DNA of 64,000 nt from assembly GCA_964016885.1 (NCBI GenBank), contig OZ024751.1, forward strand, positions 25,110,001 through 25,174,000. The letters run 5' to 3'. The notes beneath the pieces are model-generated. The model was not told the DNA's origin. It searched no databases and saw nothing but the letters and a program-made list of their open reading frames with translations. The position numbers were made by a program, and so were the translations under genes. Below, one piece after another: positions 1,633 to 62,487 of this stretch. Position 1 is the first letter of the stretch. Every line of letters starts with the position of its first letter. This DNA comes from Eledone cirrhosa. Its lineage: Eukaryota.

Positions 1633-1640
<8 letters not shown>

Positions 1641-1884
1641 TGTATATATAGTGTATTTTGCAATACACTGTATGCTTAATTAAAAGCATTTCGAAGACCT
1701 TACGCTTTTGATAAGCACCAAAAAGTGCGAAACAGCTCTGTCAGCTTTATCTCCCCTGTTTGCTGAAAATTAAAGTAAGTGAGACTGTCACTACTCTAAA
1801 ACAATAGCGTAAGTTCTTCGAAATGGTTTTAATTAAGCATACAGTGTATTGCAAAATACATTATATATACATTCATATATATAT
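1633..1884. repeat. Fold-back inverted repeat (~75-bp arms, ~100-bp spacer) between (TA)n tracts
   Basis: 1633-1705 versus 1807-1884 are reverse complements with a few mismatches. Confidence 0.85.
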
Positions 1885-1906
1885 CGCTATTTCAGAGCAC
1901 CAATTC

Positions 1907-1937
<31 letters not shown>

Positions 1938-1944
1938 AATATAT

Positions 1945-2011
<67 letters not shown>

Positions 2012-2035
2012 AATATATATATTTATATATATATA

Positions 2036-2125
<90 letters not shown>

Positions 2126-2148
2126 ATATATATATATATCTATATAAA

Positions 2149-2180
<32 letters not shown>

Positions 2181-2283
2181 TATATATCTATATAAAATAT
2201 ATATATATATATATATAAAATATATATATATCAATATAAAATATATATATATCTATATAAAATATATATATATATATTTGGTT

Positions 2284-2321
2284 CCTTTACCGGTTTCGCA
2301 GTTCTTCTGCTTTTCAAAAGG
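2284..2321 (-). ncRNA. Type I hammerhead ribozyme motif, U3-A8 core variant (minus-strand arm of palindrome)
   Basis: Exact reverse complement of 2382-2419. Confidence 0.7.
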
Positions 2322-2381
2322 TGAGTTGAGATGGAGGGTCTGTGGTTTTTCTCACAACCACAGACCCTCCATCTCAACTCA

Positions 2382-2419
2382 CCTTTTGAAAAGCAGAAGA
2401 ACTGCGAAACCGGTAAAGG
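2382..2419 (+). ncRNA. Type I hammerhead ribozyme motif, U3-A8 core variant
   Basis: CCUU | UUGAAAA | GCAG-AAGAA-CUGC | GAAA | CCGG | UA ^ AAGG. Stem I is CCUU/AAGG, stem II has 4 bp, stem III is the palindrome ACCGGU, and the cleavage triplet is GUA. Confidence 0.7.
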
Positions 2420-2550
2420 AACCAAATAAATATATATATTTAAAAAAAAAATAAGACTCCAGTTGCATTTTCGATTTCATCTCTTTTTCTTTATACTTTC
2501 ACTCGTGTAGGGGACCTCGGTTATTTTTCATTTTGTAAAAAAAACCTCAC

Positions 2551-2686
<136 letters not shown>

Positions 2687-4131
2687 ATATATTTATATAT
2701 AACTATTAAAAAAGAAAATTACACAGTGGAACTGAACTCCAAACAACCTGGTTATGGAACTATACGGACGATTCACAATCAACCAGAAAAACGTAAAAAC
2801 TGTACATCTATCCACCAGTTATATAAAACCAAGGAGAGGATTAGAGATTTGTGTTTACTTTACTCTAAGAAGGGACCGATAAATTAATTGTAACTATAAA
2901 TATAAATAAATTAGATTTAGATTCCTAAATTAGACCTAAAGCAAAACTATCCATACAAGTGAGTAGGAGACTTGAGTAGGAGAAAATTAAAGTGATAAGA
3001 ATTTGGAACATACAAAAATGAAGAAAGTTAGAAAAAGGACTAAGACGAATATTTGTTTCTAAATTTAAATATTGATTTTTAGATAGACTTCTAAATAAAA
3101 ATCGAACTCAATGCCAAAAATAAGATTATGGGTATACGTACGCCAATACTACCCAGTAATAAACTAACAGGTTCAGTGAGGAATCGGAAATTAAGTAAAT
3201 TGAAGAGTACGGATAGAAAACGTAAGAAAATTCTCACCCCCTTTCCAACAACCCATTACACTAAAGCTGATATAAATAAGATACCAATTATGAATGGTAG
3301 AGAAACCTGTTGTGTTGCTAACAGAGAACTATTACAAAGTAACTAAAATCCGTCTTGAAAAATACTAAATTTATACTATAAGTATGGGAGGATTAGAATG
3401 TCAGAGTTTATGGGCAAAACCAACCGACCGGAGACACATGGGTGGACCCTGAGCTAGATAGTTGGATAACGTCCATGAGCTTGGCTGGTCACGCTCGGGG
3501 ACCCAGCCGGATCAGTTGGAGACGGTTGCTTCTGACAAGACCAACTAGAAGGAGTATTTGAGGACTCTCCCCCCACGACCCTCTCAGGAATAAGTGGAAG
3601 AAGAAGATATTTCACAACGGATGAACAATAGCATTGACAAGCAAGCAAATGAGGTCTAGGCCAGTTGTAGAAATATAGTATAAGTAAGTATCAGTCCCAG
3701 AGACTGTAGCAGATTCTAACAGAAAATGGAAATGATGTGATTCTCTAAGATATTCAAGTACATAAACGAGAATCGACGGCATGTCTTAGAGTCCATCATT
3801 TTCTAAGTTGAAACACGGCTAATTTTTTCCAGATAATTAAATAGATAGATAAAGAGATAAAGAGAGAAAGGCAGAGAAAGAGAAAGTGATAGAATCGACC
3901 CCAATATTCAATTGCTACATCAATTTAGGACCACAAAAGTAGAGTTGATTTCAGTGCGATTTAAAATCAAATGGCAGAGAGATGGTGGAATGTATTCTAC
4001 CTAACGATCTAATAACGCTACCACTTCACCAGTGCATAAAGAGATAAGAAAAAAAAGAGAAATTTATCTTAAAAGTAAATGTCTTTTGGTTTCATCAGGA
4101 TCTGGTATGAATAAATGCCGACATAGCTGAG

Positions 4132-21339: not shown

Positions 21340-22138
<799 letters not shown>

Positions 22139-35536: not shown

Positions 35537-35770
35537 GTATATATATAGAGAATTTAGTATATCTACTAACATATGCGTACAGATGTACGCTAATGCTAGC
35601 AAATACACAGGTTATGTCATAGTACCTAGGTGGTTCAATGCAGGAGGATGCAGAACAATAATATAAAAGACGTAAAATAAGAAAATTTTAAAAAATTTAA
35701 AAAATTAACTTACTTACTAAATTTTTTAAAATGTTCTTATTTTACGTCTTTTATATGTGTATATATATAC

Positions 35771-47717: not shown

Positions 47718-47854
47718 ATATTTATTAAAATAACAGATTAAAGTTTAAGCAAAGAATCGCTGCTTTCACCCTTAACGGGATCTTCAGAAGATACCGTTAA
47801 GGGTGAAAGCAGCGATTCTTTGCTTAAACATTAATCTGTTATTTTAATAAATAT
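47718..47854. repeat. Fold-back palindrome (~65-bp arms) with a partial hammerhead core; a single-arm relative is at 35184-35250
   Basis: The arms are reverse complements around TCTTCAGAAGA. The minus strand reads CUGAAGA-UCCC-GUUAA-GGGU-GAAA, but stems I and III are poor. Confidence 0.8.
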
Positions 47855-56628: not shown

Positions 56629-57057
56629 GTGTAGTCGGTTAGAAGTATTGGTAGAGAGACTGACAACATGTAGTATGGCATTGATTACCGGTGTCGTAGT
56701 AATGATAGTCCCCCAGAAACAGTTGGCCTTGTACTTAAATCAGAAACTGTTATAATTGTTGTTGTTAGATTCCTAATTGAAATTTGAGTTACAAAATTTC
56801 TTCAAAACCCATATCTCAACATTTAGCTAGGAATTCCATAACCATTTAAGGTATCACTCTGCAATGTTAACATTGAAACATGGAACCATACTCACTCTGT
56901 AACCCAGAGAAATGCATATATATACATAAATATGTATTATATATGTATATATATATACGTATATATATATATACATACATATGTCTTATATCTATATATA
57001 TTTATATATATATATGTATATATATGTATATATATATATAAATATTTTAATATAGAT

Positions 57058-57110
57058 GAGATTCTACAGGACTAGAACTGTTTCATTCTTTAGAAATCAT
57101 CAGGAATCTC
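57058..57110 (-). ncRNA. Type I hammerhead ribozyme motif with intact core, in a fold-back (57045-57175)
   Basis: Minus strand: GAGAUUC | CUGAUGA | U-UUC-UAAA-GAA-U | GAAA | CAG-UUCUAGUC-CUG | UA ^ GAAUCUC. The plus-strand arm (57112-57162) has G12->A. Confidence 0.8.
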
Positions 57111-57386
57111 GGATTCCTGATGATTTCTAAAGAATAAAACAGTTCTAGTCCTGTAGAATCTCATCTATATTAAAACTTTTATACTCTGCAATGTATTGAG
57201 TACCTTACTTACTGTGGTTACCTCCGATTCAACCCGGAATAACGTATATATATAAATATATATATATATATAAGTATGTATACGTACATACATATATGTA
57301 TATACAGACGTACAGTAGTATGTATATATATATACATACATGCACACATATATATATGTACGTATGAAATTTCGTTTCATTTTTTC

Positions 57387-62014: not shown

Positions 62015-62487
62015 TGTTGTTATACTTTGGGAGGGTCATGCTGCCAATAAGAAACACACGCACCAGTCGATTTCACTCCAATTTATTATAAATTAAATTT
62101 TTAAATTTAAGAATTTATAAATTTCTGGTTGGTTGGTTCCACAACCGGACGGTTGTTCATATATTGTCAAATTTCTTTCGTCACACATTAAAAAAAAACA
62201 AAAAAAAAACAAGATGGCGTAGTACAGAACAAAGGAGAGGCACAAAACAAAGAAAAGAATCCCCAGTCACTGAAGAAGTCACAGAATGTGTGACGAAAGA
62301 ACTTTGACAATATATGAACAACCGTCCGGTTGTGGAACCAACAAACCAACCGGAAATTCAAAATAAATTGGAGTGAAAGCAACTGGTGCGTGTGTTTCTT
62401 ATTGGCAACATGACCCTCCCAAAGTATAACAATATCGGTTTCAACACACGTTTTCAGATAAAGAATCTTGCTAAGCAAATTCAGAAA

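What the first reader, a model, noticed from the sequence alone, without database searches (positions are those of the whole stretch)
2270..2430. Ambisense hammerhead palindrome with a compensatory U3-A8 catalytic core
Seen: a perfect fold-back with ~72-bp arms and an 8-nt loop. Each arm encodes CCUU-UUGAAAA-GCAG(AAGAA)CUGC-GAAA-CCGG-UA^AAGG. The usual CUGANGA is replaced by UUGAAAA, so both C3->U and G8->A have changed. Established: positions 3 and 8 form a Watson-Crick pair in the active fold, so U3-A8 preserves the pairing, and canonical CUGANGA searches miss it. Inference: this is either a family with a functional covariant core or two chance transitions copied by the fold-back.
Basis: partly seen in the sequence, partly recalled or inferred. 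Interest (0 to 1): 0.75.

Follow-up and report, generated by a model that had tools for sequence, protein, structure and literature searches.

The report
Penelope retrotransposon remnant with variant hammerhead
This hairpin is one of thousands of doubled-back leftover ends of a Penelope-like jumping gene carrying an already described hammerhead ribozyme variant, and rare sister copies fused to U6, ribosomal and messenger RNA pieces exactly at the predicted cut site suggest that the ribozyme likely does cut its RNA in the living animal.

Summary
The fold-back is real (73-bp arms, 8-nt spacer), but it is not a stand-alone ambisense ribozyme. It is the 5'-truncated 3' end (pseudo-LTR) of a Neptune/Nematis-type Penelope-like retrotransposon plus an inverted copy, in (TA)n; the right arm runs on to 2557. 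U3-A8 is the family consensus: 11,134 of 11,231 anchored arms; C3-G8 0. Four other families with unrelated stems also carry U3-A8. Within the family, position 8 varies no less than the free position 7 (35 vs 37), so conservation alone shows descent, not selection. The new part: about 69 arms begin exactly at the predicted cleavage site (32 one base further in; 39 at a loop control, intervals overlapping), and among them U6 3' ends (2 loci), a 28S rRNA piece, a TBL1XR1-like mRNA piece and element ORF pieces are joined precisely there, mostly mirrored in both arms. This is a likely genomic footprint of in vivo cleavage and 5'-OH ligation, on a question the literature calls open. No RNA data or assay was available.

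The parts
2275..2355 (-). Inverted, 5'-truncated copy of the element end (about -38 to +42 from U3; merges into the TA run on the left); includes the 8-nt 'loop' 2348-2355
2284..2321 (-). Minimal type I hammerhead, U3-A8 core, mirror copy; predicted cut between 2288 and 2287
2356..2557 (+). Direct, 5'-truncated copy of the PLE 3' end (pseudo-LTR), -30 to the long 3' end
2382..2419 (+). Minimal type I hammerhead: stem I 2382-2385/2416-2419, U3 2386, A8 2391, stem II 2393-2396/2402-2405, palindromic stem III 2409-2414, predicted cut between 2415 and 2416
2492..2557 (+). 'Tail': about 66 nt between the two recurrent 3' end points of the family; in head-to-head pairs usually on one arm only
1909..2274 (.). 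(TA)n microsatellite, left insertion flank
2558..2700 (.). (TA)n microsatellite, right insertion flank; a target-site duplication cannot be read in it

Best explanation
The palindrome is a short, 5'-truncated insertion of a Penelope-like retrotransposon end joined head-to-head to an inverted copy of itself, and its U3-A8 hammerhead is the inherited family ribozyme, which likely self-cleaves (predicted as a dimer) in transcripts of the parent element but would be sequestered in this copy. Shown: family membership, link to an RT+GIY-YIG ORF, two recurrent 3' ends (one per arm), a recurrent 5' end 39-45 nt upstream of U3, both arms from one template, foreign RNA pieces joined at the cut site. Inferred: the element protein nicks (TA)n and primes reverse transcription at internal UA-rich sites; most short copies run off an uncut RNA 5' end near -43 (a likely transcription start); the second arm comes from cDNA fold-back or from twin priming of both target strands on the same sense RNA; a small fraction of RNAs is cut by the ribozyme, leaving a 5'-OH that an RtcB-type ligase would join to the RNA's own 3' end (a circle, invisible in DNA) or by accident to U6, rRNA or mRNA fragments, which are then retrotransposed.
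For: L061 holds the same end downstream of an RT (PF00078) + GIY-YIG (PF01541) ORF with a CX4CX2C linker, an inverted truncated copy at its 5' end, and the tail sequence running into the ATG. 3' ends: 133 of 260 arms at +175, 77 at +108; 66 of 91 pairs carry one of each. Subfamily marker identical in both arms in 57 of 60 pairs (shuffled mean 33, max 45); 6 private variants shared against 0.9 expected. Independent contigs show loose ends at -40 and +107 and opposite-strand joints. U3-A8 also in four other families with different stems II/III and N7; 51 of 54 non-family hammerheads held have a Watson-Crick 3-8 pair; a U3-A8 tandem family is 75-79% identical in its flanks to a C3-G8 family. Junctions exactly at the cut site: 55 of 101 arms examined of 126. 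Joined there: U6 3' end with five T at two loci, one with full-length U6, LSU rRNA, a TBL1XR1-like coding piece, element ORF pieces at two loci. Foreign junction mirrored in both arms: 7 events among 101 arms, against 1 element-internal case among 70 arms at +1 and 0 among 75 at loop II. Dimer fold with 6-bp stem III -18.9 kcal/mol against -4.7 for the monomer without stem III. U6 >p to 5'-OH ligation by RtcB is shown for L1 (PMC6789731); U3-A8 cores are stated to be active in vitro (PMC3088659).
Against: No within-family selection signal: non-A at position 8 in 35 arms, at the free position 7 in 37. The excess of plain junctions at the cut site is only about twofold (69 [56-81] vs 32 [19-47] at +1 and 39 [16-76] at loop II). 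Sites upstream of the cut (-1, -2) were not tested, and only 75 of 399 loop II rows were read. The rRNA and ORF junctions have 1-3 nt of microhomology, so template switching is possible. More than 99% of arms span the cut site uncut. In context (-45..+178, a copy with the 3-bp stem I variant) stem I has pairing probability 0.0 and stem II 0.34. In a lizard PLE the ribozyme was dispensable in vitro and no reads ended at the site (PMC11167929). The arm with the longer 5' end carries the tail in 31 pairs and lacks it in 18 (extents are noisy), and lacks it in this window, which simple fold-back does not predict.
Confidence: 0.78

Rival explanations
1. Same retrotransposon remnant, but the U3-A8 motif is a dead or near-dead vestige carried by descent; junctions at the 'cut site' come from ordinary RNA breakage, RT stalling at the stem or microhomology.
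For: Positions 7 and 8 vary equally; only a twofold junction excess with overlapping intervals for loop II; poor predicted folding in context; microhomology at several junctions.
Against: U3-A8 kept with different stems in five families; intact U6 3' ends joined at exactly the predicted phosphate at two independent loci and at none of the other arms among 478 held; mirrored foreign junctions 7 vs 0-1.
Confidence: 0.15
2. The ribozyme cuts, but the chimeras arise by the reverse transcriptase jumping from the cut 5' end onto the 3' end of another RNA, not by ligation.
For: 1-3 nt microhomology at the rRNA and ORF junctions.
Against: The far commoner 5' end near -43 shows no identified foreign RNA: 258 arms classified, 15 'other', read by eye, five of them scanned with Rfam without a hit. 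U6 carries the cyclic phosphate that RtcB needs (PMC6789731). This rival still requires cleavage in vivo; its confidence is for this one step only.
Confidence: 0.25
3. A MITE or fold-back DNA transposon whose terminal inverted repeats happen to hold a hammerhead-like motif.
For: Short, high-copy, inverted arms, TA flanks.
Against: Outer ends are unequal (66 of 91 pairs), inner ends vary from tens of bases to 5.7 kb, long copies hold an RT-GIY-YIG ORF, and RNA-derived pieces sit in the centre.
Confidence: 0.02
4. A selected host locus making an ambisense ribozyme pair or hairpin RNA, or else an assembly fold-back artefact.
For: Perfect arms in this copy.
Against: One of thousands of near-identical dispersed copies; arms elsewhere carry 71 unshared later mutations in 60 pairs and unequal ends; opposite-strand joints occur in short-read contigs; a read-through RNA would pair the ribozyme with its complement.
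Confidence: 0.03

Closest known systems
Minimal hammerheads in PLE pseudo-LTRs, including the U3-A8 variant of Schistosoma mansoni Cercyon (Cervera and de la Pena 2014, PMC4209133)
   Same: Type I, short stem I, palindromic 15.2-16.2, U3-A8 covariation (about 1,300 hits there), dual motifs 100-700 bp apart on opposite strands, few copies in full elements.
   Different: Here stem II is 4 bp with no bulge before 10.1, the family has over 11,000 arms at >99% identity in the core, and there is a genomic footprint of cleavage; that paper states it had no in vivo evidence.
Neptune/Nematis-type EN+ Penelope-like elements (described in PMC8557442, PMC3846280)
   Same: RT with C-terminal GIY-YIG, CX2-5CxxC linker, partial tandems, inverted 5'-truncated copy, tail on one end, (TA)n targets.
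   Different: Tail about 66 nt rather than 30-40; Neptune versus Nematis not resolved by a tree; chimeras point to a sense RNA template, whereas PMC3846280 proposed self-priming on an antisense template.
Poseidon element of the green anole, PAc (PMC11167929)
   Same: Two internal RT start sites defining the tail; AT-rich target; both target strands extended; uncut RNA is the main substrate.
   Different: PAc has a C3-G8 core overlapping the ORF start and no reads at the cut site; here the ribozyme lies about 200 nt before the ATG and cut-site junctions exist in the genome.
U6/LINE-1 chimeric pseudogenes made by RtcB ligation (PMC6789731)
   Same: Intact U6 3' end with its U tract joined to a 5'-truncated retroelement in sense.
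   Different: L1 junctions fall at variable positions; here both U6 junctions found lie at the ribozyme cut site (only three positions were searched specifically).
Natural U3-A8 hammerheads (Perreault et al. 2011, PMC3088659) and non-LTR retrozymes (PMC7229834; bioRxiv 10.64898/2026.07.22.740005)
   Same: Same core covariation; the genome also holds tandem 310-470 bp hammerhead arrays, one with U3-A8.
   Different: The focal family is an autonomous PLE end, not a tandem non-coding array.

Membership tests
Type I minimal hammerhead ribozyme | Core N3-U-G-A-N7-N8-A ... G-A-A-A ... U-H with a Watson-Crick 3-8 pair | tested here: met
   U3-A8 in 11,134 of 11,231 arms
Type I minimal hammerhead ribozyme | Stems I and II, G10.1-C11.1, palindromic stem III allowing a dimer | tested here: met
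   the second subfamily has only 3 bp of stem I
Type I minimal hammerhead ribozyme | Match to an Rfam hammerhead model | tested here: not met
   no hammerhead family among the 150 of 217 rows shown; expected for a minimal variant, so not taken as exclusion
Type I minimal hammerhead ribozyme | Self-cleavage 3' of position 17 | tested here: inconclusive
   no assay; indirect genomic footprint
EN+ Penelope-like element | Single ORF with RT and C-terminal GIY-YIG linked to this end | tested here: met
   L061, broken by frameshifts and a stop; ORF ends also upstream in L031 and L095; absent from the window copy itself
EN+ Penelope-like element | Pseudo-LTR with hammerhead, inverted 5'-truncated copy, tail on one end | tested here: met
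Neptune/Nematis clades | CX2-5CxxC linker before the endonuclease; (TA)n targeting | tested here: met
   linker at residue 380 of the L061 frame; TA flanks
Neptune/Nematis clades | RT phylogeny placing it in Neptune | not tested
   no reference set was fetched
MITE / fold-back DNA transposon | Equal terminal inverted repeats at both outer ends | tested here: not met
   66 of 91 pairs have one long and one short end; 2 have equal ends
Non-LTR retrozyme | Head-to-tail tandem non-coding units of about 300 bp | tested here: not met
   focal family is dispersed and ORF-linked; tandem arrays belong to other families

The most novel reading that the evidence does not exclude
The genome keeps a fossil record of a Penelope-element hammerhead working in the germ line: the U3-A8 ribozyme cuts, an RtcB-type ligase joins the 5'-OH end to U6, rRNA, host mRNA or the element's own RNA, and the element then retrotransposes the chimera from a sense RNA into both arms. 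This would be genomic evidence for the cleavage-and-ligation step proposed in 2014, a route by which PLEs capture host mRNA pieces, and a sequence-only assay for which of the roughly 80,000 hammerhead motifs in this genome have been active.
Probability: 0.55. Interest if true: 0.72.

Novelty: new member of a known kind. Interest (0 to 1): 0.52.

Why it matters
The U3-A8 core and the palindrome are known features of Penelope-like elements. What matters is the by-product: reviews and primary papers read here call the role of PLE hammerheads unclear (PMC8557442), report very low in vitro rates and no in vivo evidence (PMC4209133), and found no RNA ends at the site in a lizard PLE (PMC11167929). 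Cellular RNAs fused exactly at the cut site make that question testable from genome sequence alone, bear on sense versus antisense templating of the inverted arm, and show host mRNA capture at a ribozyme end. I did not find this footprint in print in searches; two key papers were not held, and no supplements were read.

Tried and rejected
Rfam scan of the window: only microRNA-type hairpin matches in the rows shown. First anchored search used a wrong gap and returned 37 insertion variants only; repeated. Position 7 vs 8 as a selection test: no difference. Run search: no RNA holder listed; no evidence either way on expression. Laying contigs of X1 and X2 on the ribozyme to get position-wise 5' ends: no row at the cut site among the 12 of 87 loose-end rows shown; uninformative. 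Loop II control: most of the 399 matches are a 3-nt slippage; the automatic classifier miscalled them, so junctions were recounted by eye as 7 of 72. Three doubtful cut-site rows (L219, L221, L346) were dropped from 58 to give 55 of 101; L203 and L308 were dropped from the mirrored-junction count as trivial self-palindromes. First arm analysis had an offset error, corrected; 5' extents there are ungapped and fail on 68 arms with the slippage. L214 looks like an 18S rRNA piece by my recall only; Rfam was blank. Upstream pieces in L291, L299, L304, L336, L341, L215 were not identified. Lunse et al. and Przybilski and Hammann 2007 were not held; they are known to me only through citing passages. 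Earlier scan notes: nothing. MITE, host ambisense ribozyme and assembly artefact rejected as under rivals.

Full report
Observation. The window holds perfect inverted arms at 2275-2347 and 2356-2428 with 8 nt between them, and each arm reads outward as a minimal type I hammerhead with U3 and A8, a 4-bp stem I, a 4-bp stem II and a self-complementary stem III. Rfam shows no hammerhead family in the rows displayed. The genome is 3.0 Gb in 1,796 contigs and rich in (TA)n; it looks cephalopod-like by my recall, which I did not test.

It is a repeat family. A DNA search returned 82 matches from 40 scored candidates at 87-100% identity. A core-plus-stem-III pattern gives 19,836 matches against 21 for the reversed control. 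Anchoring on both flanks, leaving the core free, gives 11,231 arms. Of these 62 lack U3 (34 C, 15 A, 13 G), 35 lack A8 (10 G), none is C3-G8, and 37 differ at the unconstrained position 7 (letters counted from the full lists). So U3-A8 is the consensus, but within this young family it decays like a neutral neighbour. Counts are arms, not insertions.

It is the end of a Penelope-like element. Opposed arms lie from about 50 bp to 5.7 kb apart. In L061 the gap holds a broken ORF with RT and GIY-YIG domains and a CX4CX2C linker, followed by 1.4 kb, the ribozyme and the family 3' end; an inverted truncated copy sits at the 5' end, and the last bases of the pseudo-LTR run into the ATG. The 8-nt 'loop' of the window copy is the next stretch of this element on one arm. 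3' ends fall at two points, +175 (133 of 260 arms) and +108 (77), both at internal TA-rich words; 66 of 91 head-to-head pairs have one of each. In 41 of 68 pairs not selected by the window query the longer arm starts 39-45 nt upstream of U3; contigs of run X1 show a threefold depth step there and loose ends at -40 and +107 (the run may be the assembly's own sample). The two arms come from one template: subfamily marker equal in 57 of 60 pairs (shuffled mean 33), 6 shared private variants against 0.9, on top of 71 unshared later ones. This anatomy is that described for PLEs: inverted 5'-truncated copy, tail on one end, TA targeting tied to the linker (PMC8557442, passages; PMC3846280, passages), and two internal RT starts that define the tail (PMC11167929, parts 1-2 of 4).

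The core variant is known. Perreault et al. report natural U3-A8 covariation and state it was already shown active in vitro (PMC3088659, passages). Cervera and de la Pena report about 1,300 U3-A8 minimal hammerheads in Schistosoma PLEs and opposite-strand pairs 100-700 bp apart, low dimer activity in vitro and no in vivo evidence (PMC4209133, parts 1-2 of 4). Here U3-A8 recurs in four further families with unrelated stems and a different N7; of 54 non-family motifs in the 1.19 Mb held, 32 are C-G, 19 U-A and 3 mismatched singletons, and of the 17 in loci not fetched by a pattern fixing these positions 16 are paired. A U3-A8 tandem family is homologous to a C3-G8 one, so the double change has occurred between relatives. 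Mismatched families were not counted genome-wide.

This copy is probably inert. A transcript through both arms folds at -141.5 kcal/mol with the ribozyme paired to its complement; on either strand only one arm is a ribozyme. The isolated motif cannot close stem III as a monomer (-4.7) but can as a dimer (-18.9; best dimer -20.3). In its natural context, folded for a copy of the 3-bp stem I subfamily, stem I is not predicted.

Does the parent ribozyme cut? If cut RNA is reverse-transcribed, some copies should start at the cut site. 126 arms have a non-A base just before it; of 101 read, 55 are true junctions after dropping three doubtful rows, about 69 in all. One base further in: 15 of 50 read of 106, about 32. 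At a loop II control: 7 of 72 read of 399, about 39, interval 16-76. The plain excess is therefore modest. The kind of junction is more telling. Two independent loci have the U6 3' end with five T joined exactly to the site; in L326 one arm holds the whole U6 from nucleotide 1 and both arms share the junction. No other arm among 478 held has U6. L305 has a 110-nt LSU rRNA piece (3-nt microhomology), L414 a 105-codon TBL1XR1-like piece, L318 and L324 pieces of the element's own ORF. A uniform test for a foreign junction mirrored in both arms finds 7 events among 101 cut-site arms, one element-internal case among 70 at +1 and none among 75 at loop II. Twenty control loci with unexplained junctions gave no Rfam hit, nor did the 258 arms around -43 show an identified foreign RNA. 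Positions upstream of the cut could not be tested by this design.

Mechanism. Hammerhead cleavage leaves a 5'-OH (established chemistry). RtcB joins U6 ending in a cyclic phosphate to 5'-OH RNA, and such chimeras are retrotransposed by L1 (PMC6789731, passages); RtcB also circularises cut retrozyme RNA in vitro (PMC7229834, passages). I infer the same here: rare cleavage, ligation usually to the element's own 3' end (which restores the sequence and leaves no mark) and sometimes to a bystander RNA. End-to-end template jumping is the alternative and also needs a 5' end at the site. Because U6 is joined in sense on the 5' side and copied into both arms, the template was a sense RNA, which argues against the antisense self-priming suggested in PMC3846280. 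Whether arm two is made by cDNA fold-back or by priming both target strands on one RNA is open: the tail-bearing arm has the longer 5' end in 31 pairs and the shorter in 18, and the shorter in this window.

Novelty. The object is a new member of a known kind. The cut-site chimeras were not found in print: no paper held Penelope, U6 snRNA, chimer and hammerhead together; two related searches returned only L1/Alu and method papers (PMC8782182 passages). The library lacks most subscription papers; Lunse et al. and Przybilski and Hammann were not held and are known only from PMC6765202 (passages) and PMC3088659; bioRxiv 10.64898/2026.07.22.740005 was read in part 1 of 5; no supplements were read and they may describe such cases. 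Verdict: headline already known; side result likely real and testable. Interest 0.52.

Noticed in passing
window 1636-1905: Second head-to-head element next door: U3-A8 hammerhead at 1708 (+) with a different stem II and a longer stem III; 86% identical to a 316-bp tandem (retrozyme-like) family whose flanks are 75-79% identical to a 310-bp C3-G8 family.
   Followed up: partly
window 12741 (+): U3-A8 hammerhead of a second PLE family; in L065 this family flanks an RT-GIY-YIG ORF about 51% identical to that of L061.
   Followed up: partly
window 21975 (-) and 53717 (-): Canonical C3-G8 type I hammerheads with long stem II; the first lies in an inverted arrangement 21866-22101.
   Followed up: no
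window 47718-47854, 57045-57175, 62017-62432: Further hairpins whose arms hold hammerhead-core-like remnants by eye; likely the same truncated-plus-inverted architecture from other families. 651-832 and 35661-35756 are hairpins without an obvious core.
   Followed up: no
G000 genome-wide: 61,900 matches to a C3-G8 minimal-hammerhead pattern (control 593) and 5,978 to a U3-A8 pattern with non-A at 7 (control 741); tandem arrays of about 310, 316 and 466 bp often switch strand head-to-head like PLE insertions.
   Followed up: partly
L326:351-501 (G000:C4:274669385-274670385): Full-length U6 (111.6 bits) on one arm and its 3' part on the other, both joined to the cut site; the turn lies at U6 nucleotide 1.
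   Followed up: yes
L414:517-911 (G000:C10:11572878-11573878): 315-nt open TBL1XR1-like coding piece captured between the arms and joined to the cut site on both.
   Followed up: partly
L206, L211, L301, L319, L412, L413: Short element pieces from downstream of the cut site joined back to the cut site, as small RNA circles or self-ligation would give.
   Followed up: partly
family, loop II and the T/A run after +46: A 3-nt slippage in loop II is common (most of 399 matches), and the boundary of the T-run/A-run shifts between the two arms of one insertion.
   Followed up: no
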